Positions 9,831 to 18,361 of a stretch of DNA of 64,000 bases are shown in pieces. Both the position numbers and the translations under genes were made by a program. How positions within the stretch are numbered: position 1 is the first letter of the stretch; every line of letters starts with the position of its first letter. Location of the stretch: contig CAVXBA010000001.1 in the NCBI GenBank assembly GCA_963759885.1, forward strand, positions 268,323-332,322. The letters run 5' to 3'. Under the pieces are notes generated by a model. The model did not search any database. It saw only the letters and a program-made list of their open reading frames with translations, and had not been told where the DNA came from. Source of the stretch: an uncultured Actinomycetota bacterium (GTDB lineage Bacteria > Actinomycetota > Actinomycetes > Propionibacteriales > Nocardioidaceae).

Positions 9831-9954
9831 CCCGCACCCTTCCCGCCCATCGCGAGGGCTGTCGAATCTTGACAGTCAAGACACACCGGGCGTACACCCG
9901 TGAGGGAGGGTTCCGCGGCACGGCTGGGCCGTCCCACCATGTGTGGGGGTAATC

Positions 9955-11004
9955 ATGAGTGTCGACTCCGCCGTGGCCGATTCGAGATCGGTCGCGACTG
10001 CGGCCGCGGCCTTGCTCCGATCGGTGCGAGGCCAGGGAGCGGACGTCCAGACTGCCGTGGACCACCTCGAATTGCAGGCCCGGCGAACCATCGAGTCGTC
10101 GGTCCAGGGCTTCGACGCTGCGGACATCGACGTCAGCGAGGAGGACGTGCTGGCGGAGGCTCTCTCCCAGATCGGGATCGGCGTGACCCTCGTGACAGCG
10201 GAGTCGGCACTGGAGCAACCGCAAACGGTGGACCAACTTGACCGTGCCGTCACGTCCCTCGAAGCAAACGCGACAACGCTTGAGTCAGGCGGCGCCGTCG
10301 AGGCTGCGACCCACGGGTTCGATACAGCTCCCGATGGTGTCCTGCTCTCTGTCGACGACGCCGCGATCCAATCCCTCGACGAGATGTCCGCGACCGCCGC
10401 TGACGTTGCCTCGACCCTCCTCGACAAGGCCCGGAAACCGTTGATGACGTCAGTGCCCGAGCCGCTTCGCAACCCTGTTACCGCCCACGCGGACCAGATC
10501 GCGGGTCGGCTCCTGCGCTGGGGCCTTCGCGCCGTCGCCCGTGGACTGGACCTCCTGCTGAATCTCGTCGACCTCGCCGCGATCGAACGGGCACGCAACA
10601 AGCTCGAACGCATCCTGGCGGGCCTCGACCAGGGGGACGAACCGCACGTCCTGATGGCGTTCGCGATCGGAGCCCAAGAGGTCCGCGACCGGCTGGCACC
10701 GCCCGCCGGCGACTCCCGCTCCTCCGTCGACGACGCACGGCGCCGAACCGTTGAGGATCTCGCCGCGCTCGCCGACCGGTTCGCACGGCTTTGCGTCGTG
10801 CTGCGGCGGGTTGCCGCTGCCATCGTCGGGCTGGCCGGTGCGCTGGCCATGGTCCAGATCACCCTGCCGCACGCGACAGCAATCTCGATCGTCGGGCTCT
10901 GCCTGGTGCTCGGTGCGGTCGTCGTCCTCGGGAGGGACTACACCGGCGCCACTGATCTTCCTGGACGGGTCCGCGGAGTACGGTTCCTCGTCGGCGGGGC
11001 CTGA
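9955..11004 (+). CDS. Hypothetical tail-anchored membrane protein (operon gene A)
   Basis: Track ORF 9943..11004. ATG 9955 follows a GGGGG RBS-like run; GTG 9943 is also possible. The N-terminal ~290 aa are acidic, Ala-rich and helical, with no signal peptide. Two C-terminal hydrophobic helices: VAAAIVGLAGALAMVQITLP and ISIVGLCLVLGAVVVLG. I recognise no family. Confidence 0.7.
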   Translation: MSVDSAVADSRSVATAAAALLRSVRGQGADVQTAVDHLELQARRTIESSVQGFDAADIDVSEEDVLAEALSQIGIGVTLVTAESALEQPQTVDQLDRAVTSLEANATTLESGGAVEAATHGFDTAPDGVLLSVDDAAIQSLDEMSATAADVASTLLDKARKPLMTSVPEPLRNPVTAHADQIAGRLLRWGLRAVARGLDLLLNLVDLAAIERARNKLERILAGLDQGDEPHVLMAFAIGAQEVRDRLAPPAGDSRSSVDDARRRTVEDLAALADRFARLCVVLRRVAAAIVGLAGALAMVQITLPHATAISIVGLCLVLGAVVVLGRDYTGATDLPGRVRGVRFLVGGA

Positions 11005-11005
11005 C

Positions 11006-12151
11006 ATGCCAGTCGATCAGGGCAATCTGCTGGCGCTGAGGACAGCGGGCGAACGCGCCCGGATGCAGGACCTGCAATCGCTGCTTGCCCACAGCCTGGC
11101 CTCACCGGATGACGATCAACGACGCACGGCGCTCTCCAACCGCATCGACGATCGCGACAAGTGGGCTGCTGACCTGCACGGCCGTCCGGACGCCTGGGAG
11201 GAATGGCACAGCCAGGCCAGGTCCGCCGACACCCTCGTGGACGAGATCGTCGCCTTGCTGATGACCCGTCTTCTTCGTTCCGAGGGACTCGACGGTGGCG
11301 CCTTCGACTCGGCAGAGGCCTTGATCCATGAACTCACTCAGGCCGCGGGGGTGAAGCCTCTCGTCCTGGCACACACCCAGGAGATGGAGTCGATCGACCA
11401 CACCCGCAGCACCGTGTCCTTGCGGTTCCCGGGGTCGCGAATCTGGGATGTGCCATTCCTGGGTCACGAGTTCGGTCACCATGCAGTCGAGCAGGTTCAC
11501 CACCTCGAGCCGGCACTCTCGGATCGCAGGCCACTGCAGGAGATTGCAGACGCCACCGCCCAAACCCTCTCGGCAGCGGGCGAGACCGCCGACCGTTCGC
11601 GGAAGCACGCCGACGAGCTGATGGCAGATGTCCTCGCCACGATCAGCTGTGGGCCCACGTACCCCGTCGCCTGTCTTGTGCTGCGTGTTCCGGGCGACGC
11701 CCAAGCCTCCCGCGCCAGCAGCAGCCACCCCTCCTGGCGCGACCGGGTGGCGGTGATGCGCGAGACGCTCGACGCACTCACCGACATCACCGGCCACGCC
11801 CGCTACCAGCAACAGCGAGAGACCGTCGTCGATCCCCTGGCCTGTCAGGTTGTTGGCTCTCACCCCGCTGTCGCCGCCGCCGGAGAGCTCGCCTCGCGAC
11901 AAGCTGTCAAAGCCGTTCTCAAACACCGACCCGACCTCGTCTACCGCGATGCCGACCGCGCGATCCAGGTCTCGGGGCAACTTTCGTCGAAAGCCGAACG
12001 CAGGCTCCCCGAAGGCGCGTCGGTCCGCGCCATCGTCGACGGGGCGTGGCGCTGGCGACTTTCGCATCCCGGAGATGAGGAAACCACGATCGCAGGCATC
12101 GCCACCGGGTGGTGCCGCACGGTCCACGCAGCCCGAGGAGCCCCACGATGA
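11006..12151 (+). CDS. Hypothetical zincin-like metallopeptidase (HExxH), operon gene B
   Basis: ATG 11006 lies 1 nt after the gene A stop (TGAcATG). Motif IWDVPFLGHEFGHHAVEQVHH, with a downstream HADELMADVLATISCGP helix. Cytoplasmic: no signal peptide or TM segment. The fold assignment rests on motifs only. Confidence 0.7.
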   Translation: MPVDQGNLLALRTAGERARMQDLQSLLAHSLASPDDDQRRTALSNRIDDRDKWAADLHGRPDAWEEWHSQARSADTLVDEIVALLMTRLLRSEGLDGGAFDSAEALIHELTQAAGVKPLVLAHTQEMESIDHTRSTVSLRFPGSRIWDVPFLGHEFGHHAVEQVHHLEPALSDRRPLQEIADATAQTLSAAGETADRSRKHADELMADVLATISCGPTYPVACLVLRVPGDAQASRASSSHPSWRDRVAVMRETLDALTDITGHARYQQQRETVVDPLACQVVGSHPAVAAAGELASRQAVKAVLKHRPDLVYRDADRAIQVSGQLSSKAERRLPEGASVRAIVDGAWRWRLSHPGDEETTIAGIATGWCRTVHAARGAPR

Positions 12152-13614
12152 CCGAGACCGCTGATCTGCTCAAGATCCGCCTGGACGCGCTCGAGCTCGA
12201 CATCGCCAAGGTCGGACAGTGTGTGGACGTTGCCAAGAAGCGCGGTCTGCTGCTCGAGGACGCCATGGATGCGCTCCGCCCTCAGAAGCGAATTCTCAAG
12301 GCCTTGTCGGGTCGTCTCAACGACCTCGCGGACGCCATGGCCGAGGAACCAGAGCTCCGAGAGAGCCTCGCCGACGCTGTCATGGGACTCGACCAGGAAC
12401 TGCTCAAGGCACCCAAGATGATCGCCTCGGTCATCGACGCCGTCGGCGACACGGAGAACCGGCTCACCAAAGTGATGGCTACCACGGTCACGCTCGAGGA
12501 CGAGAACCTCACGCGCTTGCAGTCCAGCCTCAACCAACGCTGCGACAAGGTGAGGGACAAGGTTGTCGCACTGCGGCGCAAGGTGGAGGTCACCGGCGCC
12601 GATGAACGACGACTCCAGTGGCTCGAGTACCAGCAGCTGCTCGAGGACCAGGCGCGTCCGGTCTTCATGGAGTACGTCGACTTCCTCGGCGGTCTGACCG
12701 TGAGAGACACCGGCCTCGACGACCAGGTCTGCGAGATGACCGATGCGCTGCTCACCCGCTTCACGGGAGCGACGAACAAGTCACTTCCGCTGCCGGCTCG
12801 ACAGGCCGCTTTGGGCAGTGCGCTGGACAGCATCGTGCTGCTCGGTTTTCCCGAATGGTCGATCTGGGGCATCCCGTTGGTCGCGCACGAGGTCGGACTG
12901 GCCTACGCCAAGGACCGCAACAACCCAGCGCTCGCAGAGCTCATCGACCGCTTCGTCCTGAAGCGAACCGCACCCGACCAGACGGCCGGAACCCCGGGTA
13001 CGCCAGGCCGGACGAAGAACTATGTCAAGGAGCTTCTCGCTGATGCGTTCGCCGCGTACACCTTGGGGATGTCCTACGCGTGCGCGGCGCTGCTGCTCAG
13101 GTTGAGCCCTCGCCACGACGAGCCATACGATCCCGAGACGCCTCACGACATCGAACGTGCGCGCGTCATCATGCTGACCATGCTCATCGGCGGTGACACC
13201 GCCCCGCAGGCCGGTGGGTCGTTCACTGACGACGTGTCGAGGCTCGAAGAGACCTGGCGGAAAGCCGTGTCGGCGCACGCCGGCCCGGCAGCCGCAGCCG
13301 AGGCAGTCCAGGAGTCGATCGGGCCACCGCCCGAGACTGATTGGGTCGACGACTTCACCGAGGCGGCGGTTTCTCATTTCCGCCAGATGACCATGATCAT
13401 TCGGCCGTACGACGACGAGCGATGGAGGGCTTCGGAGCTCTGGTTGGAGGCCCTTCGTGAACAGACTGTCCCCCCAGGCTGGAACCCGGCCAGCGACGCC
13501 GTTCCCGATGTCCTGACGGCCGTCTGGCGTCTTCGGCTGACCCAAACAAACGACCCTGACGAACTCGCGAGCCAGGTCAAGCAGCTGTGGGTCGAGACCG
13601 GACGAGGAGGCTGA
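12148..13614 (+). CDS. Hypothetical coiled-coil protein, catalytically degenerate paralogue of gene B (operon gene C)
   Basis: ATG 12148 overlaps the gene B stop (ATGA), with a GAGGAG RBS upstream. About 170 aa of heptad-rich N-terminus. IWGIPLVAHEVGLAYAKD aligns with the HExxH block of B but lacks the second His. KELLADAFAAYTLGMSYACAALLLRL aligns with DELMADVLATISCGPTYPVACLVLRV of B. Confidence 0.7.
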   Translation: MTETADLLKIRLDALELDIAKVGQCVDVAKKRGLLLEDAMDALRPQKRILKALSGRLNDLADAMAEEPELRESLADAVMGLDQELLKAPKMIASVIDAVGDTENRLTKVMATTVTLEDENLTRLQSSLNQRCDKVRDKVVALRRKVEVTGADERRLQWLEYQQLLEDQARPVFMEYVDFLGGLTVRDTGLDDQVCEMTDALLTRFTGATNKSLPLPARQAALGSALDSIVLLGFPEWSIWGIPLVAHEVGLAYAKDRNNPALAELIDRFVLKRTAPDQTAGTPGTPGRTKNYVKELLADAFAAYTLGMSYACAALLLRLSPRHDEPYDPETPHDIERARVIMLTMLIGGDTAPQAGGSFTDDVSRLEETWRKAVSAHAGPAAAAEAVQESIGPPPETDWVDDFTEAAVSHFRQMTMIIRPYDDERWRASELWLEALREQTVPPGWNPASDAVPDVLTAVWRLRLTQTNDPDELASQVKQLWVETGRGG

Positions 13615-13615
13615 C

Positions 13616-16600
13616 ATGGCGATCTCGCGCGAAGCATCGCAGGACCGACTCCGAACGCTGAAGACAGGCACGCAGCGTCACCGCCCTTCGGCGTCCCCAT
13701 CGGCCGACGTCGAGGTCAGTCGGGTCCTGGCCGCGGTCGACCAAGGTGACGAAGACGTCGCCCGTTCGATCCTTCGTCCGATGGGTGGGTCGGCGGGTGG
13801 TCTCCGCACCCGAGTGGAAACTGAGCTCGAAGGCCTCACCGCGCGATCTTCCATCAGCGCTGAGCTGCAGGCGCTGGCCTGGGATGTCCTCTCTCGGTCA
13901 CGCGAGGCACATGGCCGTCACCACGACTCGCTCGAGGCCGCCCGTAACGCCTGGGACACGGCACCGTCACCGGCTCGATCGGCGCGGGTTGCGCTCCTCA
14001 CCCTGCGGTTCGTGGACCTCGATGAGGCAGGCGCCCTCGTCGCCGAAGGCCTGAGGACGTGGCCTGACGACGTGGATCTGCTCAGTGTCGCCGCACTTAC
14101 GGCGTTGGACCTCGGCAACTACGACGATGCCGGCGACCTTCTGGAGCGCGCCTATGAGCAGGACAGCCAACATCCCCTGATGCTCTCAGCGAGGGCGCGC
14201 TTCCTGATCCAGGCCGAGTCGCCGGAGCAGGCGTTGGTCTACGCCCGGGAAGTGGTCAGCGCCGAGCCGGCTCTGGGCCGGGCACTGGTCGCGGTCGCGC
14301 GCAGCGACGCCCAGTCGCTCGACGATGACCCGGGCGTCGTGGACGCCGTCTTGGCAAATCTCCCAACGGACTGGTGGGTGCTGAACAGGTTTGCGCTGGT
14401 GCTCATGACGATCAACCGACTTGACGACGCCCTGGGAGTCCTCGACCACGCGGTTGCTCTTGCGCAGCATCAACCCGTCGTGGTGGGCACCCGTGGCTAT
14501 GTGCAGGCGCTGCGCGGAGATCTGGACTCCGCTGACAGGGATCTCGGGTTGGCCGCTGAGAAAACCGGTGATCCGCAGCTGATGTGGGTTCGTGGCGAGG
14601 TCGCCAGGTTGCGCGGGGACTACACAACGGCGGTTACCGTCTTGTCGACGCTCTCGTCGGACGAGATTCCTAGCGTGGACACGTCCCTCGGCTCGGCCCT
14701 CACCGCTGCTGGTGACCTCCAGGGCGCGCAGGCGGCGTACGAGCGGGCCCTAGGTCGCAACCCGGACGATGTCGAGGCGCTGTGCGGGTTGGGTCAGATC
14801 ATCATGGGTGACGGCGACCTCGCTCGATCAAAGGACTTGTTCGAACGTGCTCGGGCCATCGACCCGCTGCAACCCAGTGCCCATGCTCTGGTCGCCGAGG
14901 CGATGCGACGAGACGGCCACGAGCTCGAGGCGCTCGAGGAGTTCGACCGCGCGCTGGAGCTCAGCCCCAGCTACGCGTACGCCTTGGCCTCCAAGGGGCA
15001 GGCACTTCTCTCCCTGGAAAGGCTCGAGGAGGGGATCGAACTGCTGGGGAAGGCCGCCGTGTCGGCCCCAACAACCGCCTGGATCCTCGACGAGCTCGTT
15101 CACGTGGTCGAGGCAGAAACACCAGCGACGGCGGACAGCGTGTTGCGACAGGTCCAGCGGACGATCCGTGCCGCGCAAGGGGACACCGACCCGCTCTGCC
15201 TGCGCAGGGCACGGCTGGCGACACGGCAAGAGCGTTGGTCCGATGCAGAGCGACTCTTCGGAGTAGTTCGACGCACGTACACCGCCGATGCCGGCCTGGC
15301 AGGGGAGCACGCCGACGTGTTGGCGGCCATGGGTCGGCAGACGGAGGCGCTGGGCGTACTCAGTGACATCGCCGATCCGGACGCTGATCTGCGGTGGCGC
15401 AGGATCGATCTGTTGTGGGGCCTGGACCGTCTCGATGAGGCGCACACGGAGCTCGAGCAGCTGTACGACGCCGATAACTCTCCACCTCTGGTGGCGGCCG
15501 CACTCGGCGAGATTCACCGAACCAAGGGGCGTCGCGACCAGGCTCGGCAACTCCTCACATCCGCGCTCGCCAGCGATCCCGAACACGTCTACACGCTGGC
15601 CTCCCTGGGTGCGCTCGAACGTGATGAGGGCAACCTTCAGGAGGCACGCAAACTGTTCAGCAAGGCACTCGAGAAGGACCCCACGTACGCCTTCGCTCTG
15701 GGTCTGTTGCTCACCATCGAGATCGAGACAGGCAACGAGACCGCTGCGCGTGACTTGCTTGAACGCGTCACATCCGAGGACGACCGTGCGCTTGTCGGGG
15801 TGCGTGCCAGTGGTCTGACGGAGCTCGGCGAGTTTGCGGCCGCGTGGCAGATCTGGGACGACTTCGCGATCGAGTACGGCGATGACCCCGATCTGCTACG
15901 TGCCCGAGGTTGGCTGGAGGTCGCCATGGGTCAGACCCAACGGGCGGCACGAAGTTTCCGTGCCTCTGCTGAGGTCGAAGACGTGCCATGGGGGTTGCTG
16001 GCCTCGGTCGACGGCCTGCTCAGGGTCGACCAGGTAGACGTCGCGCTGGAGCACATCGAACGCCAGCGAGACGGCGGGAATGTCTTCTGGAGGTCCGCCT
16101 TGGCCATGGTTTGGTACCACGTCGGCGGGTGGCCCATGTCCGCCAGGCTGGCATCCGCGGGCGCTGCCGCGAGCCCCACGAGCGGCCACATGGCCATCGT
16201 GGCCGCACACGCCCTGCGAATGGACCACCGTCTGGACGAAGCTGTCACGTACGCTCGTGCGGCTGTCAACCTCGCGCCCAACTACACCGCCTGGCTGGTG
16301 ACGCTGGCCGAGAATCTGTGGCTCACCCAGGACGTGGAGACCGCCACTGACGTGTTCGCGGACGTCCTCGAACGGCTTGAGCGCCGAAGCTTCCTCGAGC
16401 CCGACGAGCTGAGCCGCAAAGCCTGGTGCTTGCTTCGGTTGGATCGCCTGGACGAAGCGGCGGACGCGATGCTGCGTACGCTCAGCGCCACGGACCAGAC
16501 AGCGGAAGCCCTGCTGAACCTTCTCCTCATCACCTTGATCAAGGGCGACGCTCAGCAGGCCGAGATGCTGACAGTCCGCATCGCGCGTGAGCTGCGAACC

Positions 16601-16863
16601 GTGCGGCAGTCACGCGCCCGCGGTCTGCTCAGCACTTTCGCCTTCAACCTCCGCTCCGTGGAGGACAGGGTGCCGGAGTCGTCTCGACCGACAGCCAGGC
16701 GTGCACGCGATCAGTGCCAGGACGAGCTGCGCAAGCTGGACAAGGTCCTCGAGGAGGTCACCGCCAAGACGCGATGGGCCACGGATGAGAGCGCGCAAGA
16801 GCCAACGTGCCGGCACAGGCCCGCGCCCCCCAGGTCGACAGTCGGCAGGACATGCACACCTGA
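13616..16863 (+). CDS. Large all-TPR repeat protein, about 1080 aa (operon gene D); 3' end uncertain
   Basis: ATG 13616 lies 1 nt after the gene C stop (TGAcATG, GAGGAGG RBS). Repeated A..Y..AL...P motifs, e.g. AQAAYERALGRNPDDVEAL, ARKLFSKALEKDPTYAFAL and EEFDRALELSPSYAYAL. The literal track ORF runs to 17536, antisense through the next gene. Frame quality decays after about 16790, and a hairpin at 16874-16906 follows a TGA at 16861 in another frame. Confidence 0.75.
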
Positions 16864-16873
16864 CCGCTGTCGA

Positions 16874-16906
16874 CCGGCACCTTTCCGCAGCCGCGGGAGG
16901 TGCTGG
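16874..16906 (+). terminator. Hairpin between convergent gene D and the aldo-keto reductase
   Basis: CCGGCACCT-tt-CCGC-agcc-GCGG-g-AGGTGCTGG gives a 9+4 bp stem, with one G-U pair on the plus-strand RNA. No U-tract follows. Confidence 0.45.
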
Positions 16907-16914
16907 TCAGGGCG

Positions 16915-17940
16915 TCAGCTGCTGCTCGAACCGGCCCACAGGTCGATGCCGGCATTCACGGCGTACTCGTCGATGCGCTCGAGCTCCTCGTCGCTGAAGG
17001 CCAGGTTGTCCAGCGCCTTGACGTTCTCCTCGAGCTGCTTGACGCTGCTGGCGCCGATCACCAACGACGTCATCCGCTCGTCCCGGAGCGCCCAGGCCAG
17101 GGCCAGCTGGGCCAGCGACTGCCCACGGTCCTCGGCGATCGCGTTGAGTCCCCGGATCCGGGCCATGTTCTCGTCGTTGAGGAAGCTCCTGTCGAGGCTG
17201 CCTTCCGACGCCGCGCGCGATCCTTCGGGGATGCCGTCGAGGTACTTCCCGGTGAGCATGCCCTGGGCCAGGGCGGTGAAGCCGATGCAACCCGCCCCGA
17301 CCTCCTCCAGCGCATCGAGCAGGTCGGGCTCGATCCAGCGGTTCAGCATCGAGTACGACGGTTGGTGGATGAGCAGCGGCGTACCGAGGTCGCGGAGGAT
17401 CGCGGCGGCCTCGCGGGTGCGCTCGTCGGAGTACGACGAGACCCCGACGTACAGCGCCTTGCCCTGGCGGACCGCGCTGTCCAGCGCGCCCATCGTCTCT
17501 TCGAGCGGCGTGTCCGGGTCGAAGCGGTGGCTGTAGAAGATGTCGACGTAGTCCAGGCCCATCCGCTGCAAGGAGTCATCGAGGCTGGACAGCAGATACT
17601 TGCGGGACCCGAGGTCACCGTACGGGCCGGGCCACATGTCCCACCCGGCCTTGGTCGAGATGACCAGCTCGTTGCGGTACGGCGCGAGGTCCTCGGCCAG
17701 CAGCCGACCGAAGGCCTCCTCGGCGGCGCCGTAGGGAGGGCCGTAGTTGTTGGCCAGGTCGAAGTGCGTGATTCCGAGATCGAACGCCCGCCGGACGATG
17801 GCGCGCTTGACCTCGGCGTCCCGGTCGTCGCCGAAGTTCTGCCACAGACCCAGCGACAACAGCGGGAGCCGGAGCCCGCTGCGTCCGCAGCGCCGGTAGT
17901 CCATCGAGTCGTAGCGGTCGTCAGCGGCGAGGTAGGTCAC
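16915..17940 (-). CDS. Aldo/keto reductase, YghZ/Gpr-like (L-glyceraldehyde-3-phosphate reductase family)
   Basis: Inside track ORF 16915..18057. GTG 17940 gives VTYLAADDRYDSMDYRRCGRSGLRLPLLSLGLWQNFG, matching the YghZ-type N-terminus. Other AKR blocks: HFDLANNYGPPYG and IHQPSYSMLNR. Confidence 0.88.
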   Translation of the reverse strand: MTYLAADDRYDSMDYRRCGRSGLRLPLLSLGLWQNFGDDRDAEVKRAIVRRAFDLGITHFDLANNYGPPYGAAEEAFGRLLAEDLAPYRNELVISTKAGWDMWPGPYGDLGSRKYLLSSLDDSLQRMGLDYVDIFYSHRFDPDTPLEETMGALDSAVRQGKALYVGVSSYSDERTREAAAILRDLGTPLLIHQPSYSMLNRWIEPDLLDALEEVGAGCIGFTALAQGMLTGKYLDGIPEGSRAASEGSLDRSFLNDENMARIRGLNAIAEDRGQSLAQLALAWALRDERMTSLVIGASSVKQLEENVKALDNLAFSDEELERIDEYAVNAGIDLWAGSSSS

Positions 17941-18034
17941 GCCGCCAGTCTGGCAAAGGACTGACAACCCGGCACATCCGCACCAGGGAGGTAGCCCGGC
18001 GGGGCGGGTCAGGTCCGCCTGACATGATCGGTCC

Positions 18035-18361
18035 ATGGACGTTGCCTCGATCCACACCCTGGCCGAAGACCAGCTCGCGCTCGCAGTGCAGGCGCCAAGC
18101 GGGCGGAGCTCCGCCCGTGTCTACGGCCGACCGACCGCGCGATTGCGCCAGACCCTCGTCGCGCTTGCCGCCGGCCGCAAGATGGGCGAGCACAAGAGCC
18201 CCGGCGACGCCTCGCTGCTCTGCCTGCAAGGCGGCGTGATCCTCCATGCCGGTGATGCCAGTGTCGAGCTCGGGCCAGGCGATCTGCTGGCGCTCCCGCC
18301 TCAGCGACACGAGATCGAAGCGGTCAGTGCTTCGGTCCTCCTGCTGACCGTCGCGCACTGA
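18035..18361 (+). CDS. Small cupin-domain protein
   Basis: Track ORF, 108 aa. GEHKSPGDASLLCLQGGVILHAGDASVELGPGDLLALPPQRHEIEA is a cupin-like beta-barrel pattern. Confidence 0.55.
   Translation: MDVASIHTLAEDQLALAVQAPSGRSSARVYGRPTARLRQTLVALAAGRKMGEHKSPGDASLLCLQGGVILHAGDASVELGPGDLLALPPQRHEIEAVSASVLLLTVAH

What the first reader, a model, noticed from the sequence alone, without database searches (positions are those of the whole stretch)
11006..13614. Adjacent active/inactive zincin paralogue pair (B: HEFGH, C: HEVGL)
Blocks align across the two proteins:
- B VSLRFPGSRIWDVPFLGHEFGHHAVEQ / C VLLGFPEWSIWGIPLVAHEVGLAYAKD
- B DELMADVLATISCGPTYPVACLVLRV / C KELLADAFAAYTLGMSYACAALLLRL
- B SHPSWRDRVAVM / C TPHDIERARVIM
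- further upstream, B GLDGGAFDSAEALIHELTQ / C GLDDQVCEMTDALLTRFTG

C keeps His-Glu but has lost the second metal-binding His, and it has gained a long coiled coil. Enzyme plus pseudo-enzyme pairs encoded by overlapping genes (ATGA) usually form regulatory heterodimers.
Basis: seen in the sequence. Interest (0 to 1): 0.6.

Follow-up and report, generated by a model that had tools for sequence, protein, structure and literature searches.

The report
Hidden M48-type protease with dead partner
Two overlapping genes encode an unannotated zinc protease of the M48 (HtpX/BepA) type and a conserved, catalytically disabled copy of it. The two are always inherited together, and are sometimes fused, inside a four-gene cassette with a membrane protein and a giant TPR protein whose function is unknown.

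Summary
B (11006-12151) and C (12148-13614) overlap by ATGA and are true paralogues (BLASTP E=1e-12; profile-profile 98.9 %, 287 columns).

- **B:** it carries the three motifs that define M48 peptidases: HEFGH, ExxAD and the autoinhibitory plug HPx4R. The published M48 pattern is present in 26/26 full-length orthologues and 131/133 distant relatives, yet no Pfam, NCBIfam, PADLOC or PDB model detects the family.
- **C:** it has HEVGL, a variable third ligand and no plug His (M48 pattern in 0/61). It adds a ~185-aa coiled coil and evolves more slowly than B (dN/dS 0.145 against 0.255), so it is a working pseudoenzyme.
- **Pairing:** all 21 loci examined have one complete module plus one or two degenerate ones (19 by the strict pattern, 2 technical). 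In five metagenomic loci a degenerate and a complete module are fused in one ~850-aa protein. Trees of the active and degenerate modules mirror each other.
- **Cassette:** A (membrane hairpin)-B-C-D (TPR) is rare, patchy, and sits in unrelated chromosomal contexts.

A B-C complex is strongly suggested but not shown. The substrate and biological role are unknown. Two C orthologues regained HExxH but still lack other signature residues. An earlier scan note flagged the same operon on this same DNA.

The parts
9955..11004 (+). Gene A: 349-aa helical protein with a C-terminal hydrophobic hairpin and a conserved tail (GRDYTGATDLPGRVRGV). First gene of the cassette.
   Evidence: ORF. Its homologues are all 'hypothetical' and carry no Pfam domain. 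Alignment A4 includes the ~400-aa upstream genes of the fusion loci. Kyte-Doolittle 19-residue windows reach 2.67 around residues 285-321.
11006..12151 (+). Gene B: 381-aa soluble, M48-like zinc metallopeptidase with the complete signature.
   Evidence: (AF2 pLDDT 92.8).
11465..11479 (+). B HEFGH (H154 E155 H158): two zinc ligands and the catalytic base.
   Evidence: Invariant in 28 orthologues and in 38 diverse core sequences. Coordinates checked.
11615..11629 (+). B ELMAD (E204...D208): the third zinc ligand, on the 'glutamate helix'.
   Evidence: Invariant. This helix aligns to the M48 ExxAD helix in hhalign at 86.6 %, E=4.5e-6.
11726..11746 (+). B HPSWRDR: the HPx4R active-site plug motif of M48 peptidases.
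   Evidence: H241, P242 and R247 are invariant. The motif is defined in PMC7950410.
12135..12140 (+). GAGGAG ribosome-binding site for C, lying inside the end of B.
   Evidence: Read directly from the sequence.
12148..12151 (+). ATGA overlap of the B stop and the C start.
12148..13614 (+). Gene C: 488-aa paralogue of B without a complete metal site, read here as a pseudo-peptidase.
   Evidence: (AF2 pLDDT 84.9).
12148..12702 (+). N-terminal ~185-aa coiled-coil or helical extension of C, absent from B.
   Evidence: AF2 predicts helices 7-66, 68-77, 81-112, 119-148 and 151-183. The profile gives generic coiled-coil matches in the PDB.
12886..12900 (+). C HEVGL: the degenerate HExxH, with the second His replaced by Leu.
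   Evidence: Among 57 orthologues the five positions read H 57, E 55, V 50, G 55 and L 50.
13027..13044 (+). C KELLAD: counterpart of ExxAD. The Glu is present here but is not conserved in the family (E 19, Q 24 of 57), whereas the Asp is conserved (56/57).
13138..13158 (+). C TPHDIER: remnant of the plug. The P and R of HPx4R are kept and the zinc-binding His is lost.
   Evidence: Column counts.
13616..16860 (+). Gene D: giant TPR protein of about 1,050-1,080 aa, last gene of the cassette. Its 3' end is uncertain.
   Evidence: TPR families score down to E=5.6e-38. Orthologues are 1,060-1,221 aa. The literal ORF runs on to 17536.

Best explanation
**Proposed roles**
- B is a soluble, previously unrecognised relative of the M48 zinc metallopeptidases (Ste24/HtpX/BepA/Oma1 type). 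Its ligands would be H154, H158 and E204, its catalytic base E155, and its autoinhibitory plug the HPx4R loop (H241).
- C is an ancient paralogue that has lost the second His, usually the Glu ligand, and the plug His. It kept the fold-defining residues and gained a coiled coil, so it is a non-catalytic pseudo-peptidase.

**Proposed mechanism**
- The two proteins are made in coupled fashion and act as one heteromeric unit.
- C serves as the regulatory or targeting subunit. For example, it could hold or release B's plug, or form the other half of a substrate-binding chamber.
- The unit works at the cytoplasmic face of the membrane together with the hairpin-anchored protein A and the TPR protein D. 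A is the most likely anchor and/or substrate.

**Status of each step**
- Shown: paralogy, the motif states, their conservation, purifying selection, co-inheritance, and gene fusion in relatives.
- Inferred: zinc binding and proteolysis by B, inactivity of C, the physical B-C complex, the role of the plug, and any link to A and D beyond the shared operon.
For: **Paralogy**
- BLASTP E=1e-12; hhalign 98.9 % over 287 columns.

**M48 signature in B**
- H154, E155, G157, H158, E204, D208, H241, P242 and R247 are invariant in orthologues and in 38 diverse cores drawn from a 1,102-cluster superfamily.
- The published M48 pattern H-E-x-x-H-x(30,140)-H-P-x(4)-R (PMC7950410) is found in 26/26 full-length B orthologues, 131/133 distant representatives and 0/61 C orthologues.
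- The Glu helix aligns to a profile of genuine M48 domains at 86.6 %, E=4.5e-6.
- AF2 (pLDDT 92.8) places three beta-strands before the HExxH helix and then the Glu helix, which is the zincin order.
- The weak top Foldseek hits are gluzincins: ACE, M61, jannalysin and IrrE.

**C is functional but not catalytic**
- dN/dS between congeners is 0.145 for C and 0.255 for B.
- C has shorter branches than B in the module tree.

**B and C act as a unit**
- All 21 loci have one complete module plus one or two degenerate ones. Nineteen meet the strict pattern; the other two are technical (ExxCD, and a truncated ORF).
- The two module types are fused in one ORF in loci L018 and L020-L023 and in proteins P0154, P0169, P0174, P0208, P0213, P0229 and P0234.
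- The active and degenerate subtrees mirror each other.
- The genes are joined by the ATGA overlap with a Shine-Dalgarno site.

**Cassette**
- A-B-C-D is conserved in at least nine unrelated chromosomal contexts.
- A has a membrane-grade hydrophobic hairpin, whereas B, C and D have none.
- M48 enzymes are known to be plug-autoinhibited, and BepA pairs the protease with a TPR domain (PMC7950410; abstract of PMC13655028 as listed).
Against: - No Pfam, NCBIfam or PDB sequence model detects B, including PF01435 at E<=1.
- Foldseek finds no significant structural neighbour for B or C.
- The hhalign match to M48 covers only 35 columns. With the narrow B alignment it was weak (22.6 %).
- Model coordinates could not be inspected, so the ligand geometry is unverified.
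- No multimer prediction or experiment supports a B-C contact.
- Within the close C clade, H247 and E248 are nearly invariant (57/57 and 55/57), which is unexpected for a purely dead site and leaves room for a residual chemical role.
- Two C orthologues carry HExxH again.
Confidence: 0.62

Rival explanations
1. C is still an enzyme. It would use a different ligand set (H247 and E248 plus E295/D299 or a residue supplied in trans), so that the pair is two active peptidases, or one composite active site, rather than an enzyme and a pseudoenzyme.
For: - H247 and E248 are kept in 57/57 and 55/57 close orthologues, and the surrounding PEWSIWGIPLVGHEVGLAY block is more conserved than the equivalent block of B.
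- The Glu of the HE pair survives in most degenerate modules even across distant systems.
- P0031 has HEVAH plus ELLAD.
Against: - Across systems the same position reads REIGL, YHAGL, HAYGF, RALGL, YPLGH or HHAGA, so no common ligand set survives.
- The third-ligand column is Q, E, H or D in the close clade.
- The plug His is gone.
- The M48 pattern is found in 0/61 C orthologues.
Confidence: 0.1
2. C is a coiled-coil adaptor only. It tethers B to A and/or D and has no effect on B's catalytic state. The homology to B is a historical leftover, and the pair is not a regulatory heterodimer in the strict sense.
For: - C gained a ~185-aa coiled coil, typical of tethers.
- C is the slowest-evolving component, as expected for a hub with many partners.
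- Systems with three modules exist, which suggests scaffold-like multiplicity.
Against: - The groove-forming blocks of the zincin fold (PxW..W..P and ADAFATY..G..Y) are the most conserved parts of C, not the coiled coil.
- The fused proteins join the two zincin bodies directly, without the long coiled coil.
Confidence: 0.2
3. B and C do not work together. C is a decaying duplicate that is merely co-transcribed with B.
For: C has lost catalytic residues. In Umezawaea endophytica the C gene is split by a frame change.
Against: - dN/dS is 0.145, lower than for B.
- There are more than 57 full-length orthologous clusters with strongly conserved blocks.
- A degenerate module is present in all 21 loci, fusions exist, and the trees mirror each other.
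Confidence: 0.03

Closest known systems
M48 zinc metallopeptidases (Pfam PF01435: HtpX, Ste24, Oma1, LoiP, and especially BepA)
   Same: - The same three-block signature in the same order: HExxH, ExxAD on a later helix, and the HPx4R plug with identical His-to-Arg spacing.
- The Glu helix aligns profile-to-profile.
- BepA combines the protease with TPR repeats, and here a TPR protein is encoded in the same operon.
- From established knowledge, M48 enzymes typically act on membrane-associated substrates, and here a membrane hairpin protein heads the operon.
   Different: - The PF01435 model does not detect B.
- There are no transmembrane segments or signal peptide, so the protein is soluble and cytoplasmic.
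- It has extra N- and C-terminal helical domains, for 381 aa in total.
- It is always accompanied by one or two degenerate paralogues, which to my knowledge is not described for M48. A literature search found nothing on this.
- The TPR part is a separate protein of about 1,000 aa or more.
M16 processing peptidases: mitochondrial MPP alpha/beta and bacterial M16B heterodimers, compared with single-chain pitrilysin/IDE
   Same: The logic is the same. A catalytic zinc subunit is paired with a homologous non-catalytic subunit, and related lineages fuse the two halves into one chain (MPP heterodimer: abstract of PMC12670562; the rest from established knowledge).
   Different: The fold and motif are unrelated (inverzincin HxxEH). 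The fusion order differs, with the degenerate half N-terminal here. No structural evidence for a clamshell exists here.
Clostridioides difficile Csp subtilisin-like proteases (CspB active; CspA and CspC pseudoproteases; CspBA fusion)
   Same: One active protease is combined with pseudoprotease paralogues, one fused and one separate, within a single locus. This matches the three-module variants found here (abstract of PMC7200643).
   Different: Those are serine proteases in a spore-germination signalling pathway. They are unrelated in sequence and in host biology.
Trypanosome AdoMetDC-prozyme (a dead paralogue relieves autoinhibition)
   Same: It gives a mechanistic precedent for the proposal that C relieves B's plug autoinhibition (abstract of PMC5201418).
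   Different: It is not a protease and is eukaryotic. It serves as an analogy only.
Bacterial gasdermin-protease-repeat-domain defence operons
   Same: The architecture is analogous: a membrane-active protein, one or more proteases and a TPR-type repeat sensor in a compact, patchily distributed cassette (from established knowledge; not tested here).
   Different: - A is helical with a hydrophobic hairpin and is not a gasdermin.
- The protease belongs to a different class.
- There are no PADLOC hits and no defence-island context.

Membership tests
M48 metallopeptidase (PF01435) | HExxH zinc-binding and catalytic motif | tested here: met
   B has HEFGH at residues 154-158. It is invariant in 28 orthologues and in 38 diverse cores. 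C does not have it (HEVGL).
M48 metallopeptidase (PF01435) | Third zinc ligand Glu on a downstream helix, in an ExxAD context | tested here: met
   E204 and D208 of B are invariant. This helix aligns to the ExxAD helix of a profile of 20 true M48 domains at 86.6 %, E=4.5e-6. In C the Glu position is variable.
M48 metallopeptidase (PF01435) | HPx4R active-site plug, 30-140 residues after HExxH (diagnostic pattern of PMC7950410) | tested here: met
   B has HPSWRDR at residues 241-247. The pattern is present in 26/26 full-length B orthologues, 131/133 distant representatives and 0/61 C orthologues.
M48 metallopeptidase (PF01435) | Score above the Pfam gathering threshold for PF01435 | tested here: not met
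   B, C and ten distant relatives give no PF01435 hit, even at E<=1 or 0.1. I therefore call B 'M48-like', not a PF01435 member.
M48 metallopeptidase (PF01435) | Zincin fold: beta-sheet, then the active-site helix, then the Glu helix | tested here: inconclusive
   The AF2 secondary-structure order fits: strands 120-140, helix 151-163 with HExxH, helix 195-215 with E204. Foldseek gives no significant hit. The best weak hits are gluzincins (E>=0.09, TM about 0.2; jannalysin TMt 0.46).
M48 metallopeptidase (PF01435) | Zinc-dependent peptidase activity | not testable with these tools
   This needs purified protein.
Enzyme / pseudoenzyme paralogue pair (MPP alpha/beta type) | The partner is homologous to the enzyme over the catalytic domain | tested here: met
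   hhalign gives 98.9 % over 287 columns.
Enzyme / pseudoenzyme paralogue pair (MPP alpha/beta type) | The partner lacks catalytic or metal residues but is under purifying selection | tested here: met
   Motif states are. dN/dS is 0.145.
Enzyme / pseudoenzyme paralogue pair (MPP alpha/beta type) | The two proteins form a physical complex | not testable with these tools
   Support is indirect only: fusion proteins, obligate co-occurrence and mirrored trees. No multimer prediction was available.
Known anti-phage defence systems (PADLOC-DB 2.0) | Match to a model of a known or candidate defence protein | tested here: not met
   A, B and C give no hits, and D gives only weak TPR noise.
Known anti-phage defence systems (PADLOC-DB 2.0) | Location in defence islands or on mobile elements | tested here: not met
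   The neighbours are ordinary metabolic and housekeeping genes in seven annotated contexts. No relatives were found in viral contigs. The patchy distribution is compatible with an accessory role.

The most novel reading that the evidence does not exclude
The A-B-C-D cassette may be a new kind of protease-triggered membrane-effector system, either immunity/abortive infection or a stress-induced suicide or dormancy switch. In this reading the fast-evolving TPR protein D senses a trigger. The pseudo-peptidase C then transmits the signal by displacing the HPx4R plug of the M48-like peptidase B. B then cleaves the hairpin protein A, freeing a colicin- or Bcl-2-like hydrophobic hairpin that permeabilises the membrane. 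This would be the first M48-based, pseudoenzyme-gated effector system. Functionally it would parallel gasdermin-protease-TPR operons without being homologous to them.
Probability: 0.15. Interest if true: 0.85.

Novelty: new variant of a known kind. Interest (0 to 1): 0.55.

Why it matters
- **A hidden family.** M48 proteases (HtpX, Ste24, Oma1, BepA) are a major class of quality-control and processing enzymes. How their autoinhibitory plug is released is a current question (PMC13655028). Here a large family, 1,102 clusters at 50 % identity, carries the full M48 signature yet escapes every curated model.
- **A natural regulatory pair.** The family is always partnered with a disabled copy of itself, which is not described for M48. 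If C gates B's plug, it would be a natural, genetically separable example of plug control by a pseudoenzyme.
- **A cassette to name and test.** The four genes (membrane hairpin protein, enzyme, pseudoenzyme, TPR giant) are compact, portable and wholly unannotated, so they are a concrete target for naming and for functional tests.
- **A better diagnostic.** Counting HExxH alone is a poor test of activity. The complete three-motif signature separates active from inactive modules cleanly.

Tried and rejected
- **Curated libraries.** Pfam, NCBIfam, PADLOC and PHROGs scans of A, B, C and the fusion proteins returned nothing but noise.
- **PDB by sequence.** Searches with single sequences and with profiles gave no relative. 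C matched only generic coiled coils.
- **Structure comparison.** Foldseek of the B and C models against the PDB, and of B against BFVD, gave no significant match.
- **First M48 comparison.** hhalign of the narrow B alignment against M48 was weak (22.6 %). It rose to 86.6 % only after I rebuilt the profile from 38 diverse cores, and even then covers only the Glu helix.
- **Viral contigs.** The scan found no relatives.
- **Literature.** Searches for M48 pseudoenzymes or for TPR/metalloprotease defence systems found nothing specific.
- **Structure limits.** Model coordinates are not exposed, so ligand distances could not be measured.
- **'Decaying duplicate' idea for C.** Rejected on selection and conservation.
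- **Simple rule that 'no C orthologue has HExxH'.** Rejected: two do. I replaced it with the full-signature rule.
- **Site in congeners without the cassette.** In G004 and G007, fhs is not within about 12 kb of the reductase, so an 'empty site' comparison was not possible.
Full report
**Anatomy**

The window is high-GC (about 0.68) and belongs to a 3.6-Mb, three-contig actinobacterial genome. Between the formate-tetrahydrofolate ligase gene and a convergent aldo/keto reductase gene lie four tightly packed genes on the + strand:
- A, 9955-11004, 349 aa.
- B, 11006-12151, 381 aa.
- C, 12148-13614, 488 aa.
- D, 13616 to about 16860, a giant TPR protein.

The A/B and C/D junctions are both cTGAcATG. 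B and C overlap as ATGA, and a GAGGAG site lies 7 nt upstream of the C start. A has a membrane-grade hydrophobic hairpin near its C terminus (Kyte-Doolittle 19-residue maximum 2.67). B, C and D have no such segment (maximum about 1.4).

**Observation check**

B and C are homologous by any standard.
- BLASTP gives E=1e-12, with 32 % identity over 152 residues.
- Comparing the family profiles (28 B orthologues, A1; 57 C orthologues, A2) gives probability 98.9 %, E=2.7e-17, over 287 columns. This spans B 59-369 and C 153-480 and includes a shared C-terminal (A/V)WR(W/L)RL motif.
- The extra N-terminal ~185 residues of C are predicted as long helices (AF2 pLDDT 84.9) and match coiled-coil proteins generically.

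**What B is**

No curated library recognises A, B or C. This covers Pfam, NCBIfam, PADLOC, PHROGs, and the PDB by sequence or by profile. The AF2 models of B (pLDDT 92.8) and C have no significant Foldseek neighbour. The weak top hits for B are gluzincins: ACE/ACE2, M61, jannalysin and IrrE.

The family is nevertheless large. A profile search of 1.84 billion representative proteins finds 1,102 clusters at E<=1e-3 and 646 at E<=1e-10.

Across 38 diverse cores the invariant residues, in B numbering, are W147, H154, E155, G157, H158, E204, D208, A211, G216, H241, P242 and R247. These form three blocks: HExxH, ExxAD and HPx4R.

I built a profile of 20 genuine M48 domains from related genomes. Its invariant residues are H-E-x-x-H, R..E..AD and H-P-x4-R, with the same His-to-Arg spacing. 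Profile-profile comparison aligns the Glu helices at 86.6 %, E=4.5e-6. With the narrow B alignment the match was only 22.6 %.

The BepA structure paper states that the HPx4R active-site plug is conserved throughout PF01435. In it the His is the fourth zinc ligand and is autoinhibitory. The paper also states that H-E-x-x-H-x(30,140)-H-P-x(4)-R specifically identifies the family (PMC7950410). That pattern is present in 26/26 full-length B orthologues, in 131/133 distant representatives, and in 0/61 C orthologues.

I therefore read B as a divergent, soluble, M48-like peptidase. Because the PF01435 model does not reach it, I do not file it as a PF01435 member.

**What C is**

In 57 orthologues the first His is kept in 57/57 and the Glu in 55/57. 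The second His is Leu in 50, Met or Val in 2 each, Thr in 1, and His in only 2. The third-ligand column is Q 24, E 19, H 6 and D 5. The plug keeps its Pro (44/57) and Arg (56/57), but the His is replaced by E, R, Q and other residues.

In more distant systems the same motif reads REIGL, YHAGL, HAYGF, HEFGQ, YEYGQ, HEYGY, RALGL, FEYGF, YPLGH, REYGH or HHAGA. The scaffold blocks (PxW..W..P and ADAFATY..G..Y) stay conserved.

C is not decaying. Between this genome and a congener that carries the cassette at the same site (G006), the values are as follows:

| Gene | dN/dS |
|---|---|
| fhs (flank) | 0.055 |
| reductase (flank) | 0.11 |
| A | 0.22 |
| B | 0.255 |
| C | 0.145 |
| D | 0.175 |

C is thus the most constrained cassette gene: 81 % identity against 64 % for B.

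**Do B and C work as a unit?**

Three independent lines of evidence say yes.

1. *Co-occurrence.* In 21 loci from genomes and metagenomes, every locus has one module with the complete signature and one or two degenerate modules. Nineteen meet the strict pattern. The other two are technical: one has ExxCD, and one ORF is truncated.
2. *Fusion.* Seven ~790-870-aa database proteins consist of an N-terminal degenerate module (HDYGH, HELGL, HDLGY...) and a C-terminal complete one (HEFGH, ExxAD, HPx4R). The same holds for single continuous ORFs in five metagenomic loci of differing GC (L018, L020-L023). In those loci a third, separate degenerate paralogue follows.
3. *Co-diversification.* In a tree of 45 modules, the active and degenerate modules fall into separate supported clades whose internal topologies mirror each other. 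A single origin of the degenerate state is not excluded.

The C orthologue with HEVAH (P0031, locus L035) nests inside the HEVGL clade, so it is a secondary L-to-H reversion, and it still lacks the plug. The distant G197 C has HEMAH, but Ser replaces the Glu ligand and there is no HP.

**The cassette**

A-B-C-D, with overlapping or abutting genes, recurs in several genomes:
- an uncultured Actinomycetota genome, Umezawaea, a Mycobacterium MAG, Kribbella and Lentzea;
- two further MAG chromosomes;
- the congener G006.

In each genome other than the syntenic congener G006 the neighbours are different and ordinary, with no mobile-element or known defence genes.

The ~400-aa gene upstream of the fusion proteins is an A homologue. 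It has the same hydrophobic hairpin and the same C-terminal G(M/R)D(Y/F)(A/T)(D/G)T...GV tail. The gene downstream is again a giant TPR protein.

The cassette is rare and patchy. It was found in 1 of 7 congeners, 0 of 33 other relatives from the same family and order, and 1 of 400 sampled genomes of the phylum. In that last search only four candidates per genome were scored. No relatives occur in 2.9 million viral contigs. Synonymous divergence of the cassette between the two congeners (0.85-1.15) exceeds that of the flanks (0.42 and 0.73).

**Mechanism proposed, with status**

- *Shown:* homology, motif states, selection, co-inheritance and fusion.
- *Inferred from M48 biology* (PMC7950410; the abstract of PMC13655028 seen): B is a zinc peptidase held inactive by its HPx4R plug.
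- *Inferred from the data here:* C is a non-catalytic subunit that binds B and either controls the plug, completes a substrate chamber, or tethers B through its coiled coil.
- *Speculative:* the complex acts at the membrane on or with A, and D acts as a TPR scaffold or sensor. Whether this serves regulated proteolysis or quality control (as for HtpX and BepA), or a conflict/abortive function, is open. The patchy distribution, portability and fast-evolving D lean towards an accessory, possibly conflict-related role. The ordinary genomic contexts and the lack of PADLOC hits lean against a classical defence island.

**Novelty and verdict**

Active/inactive protease pairs are known, for example M16 MPP alpha/beta and the C. 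difficile Csp proteins. M48 enzymes are well studied. An M48-type family with an obligate pseudo-paralogue, hidden from all curated models and embedded in a conserved four-gene cassette, appears undescribed in the libraries and literature I could search. I rate it a new variant of a known kind, of moderate to good interest.

Noticed in passing
window 16770-17536: The literal D ORF has no stop until 17536 and runs about 620 nt antisense through the convergent aldo/keto reductase gene (16915-18057, minus strand). The G006 orthologue ends about 30 codons after the last conserved block, and D orthologues elsewhere are 1,060-1,221 aa. A frameshift, an assembly indel or a lost stop near 16790-16860 is likely.
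   Followed up: partly
window 11000-11008 and 13610-13618: The A/B and C/D junctions are the same 8-mer, cTGAcATG (stop, one base, start). B/C uses ATGA. All three junctions therefore imply translational coupling.
   Followed up: partly
window 9943-16860 versus L017 (G006:C26): Synonymous divergence of the four cassette genes between the two congeners (dS 0.85-1.15) is higher than that of the flanking fhs (0.42) and reductase (0.73). This could reflect allele replacement by recombination, or weaker codon bias in the cassette.
   Followed up: no
L002:9104-10502 (Umezawaea endophytica DSM 103496): The C orthologue is split between two reading frames: the coiled-coil part and the pseudo-zincin part. 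NCBI annotates only a 281-aa product. This is either a real frameshift or a sequencing error in an isolate genome.
   Followed up: no
L035:11140-12597 (protein P0031): This C orthologue, 67 % identical to the window's C, reads HEVAH plus ELLAD, a regained HExxH with the Glu ligand. It has no HPx4R plug. It nests inside the HEVGL clade, so it may be a natural 'resurrection' experiment.
   Followed up: partly
L018, L020, L021, L022, L023 (metagenome contigs): These are three-module variants of the system. The order is an A-like gene, a fused degenerate-plus-active protein (817-871 aa), a third degenerate paralogue (437-599 aa; HEFGQ, YEYGQ, HEYGY) and a TPR giant of up to 1,517 aa.
   Followed up: partly
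L036 (ENA contig_72191): Here the cassette downstream of B is broken into many short called genes (187, 317, 331, 150 and 119 aa...). This is probably indel noise in a long-read assembly rather than biology.
   Followed up: no
A family alignment A4 (window 9955-11004): The A proteins carry two conserved GFD motifs in the cytoplasmic helical domain and an invariant Gly in the tail after the hydrophobic hairpin. These are candidate recognition or cleavage sites for the peptidase, but this is untested.
   Followed up: no
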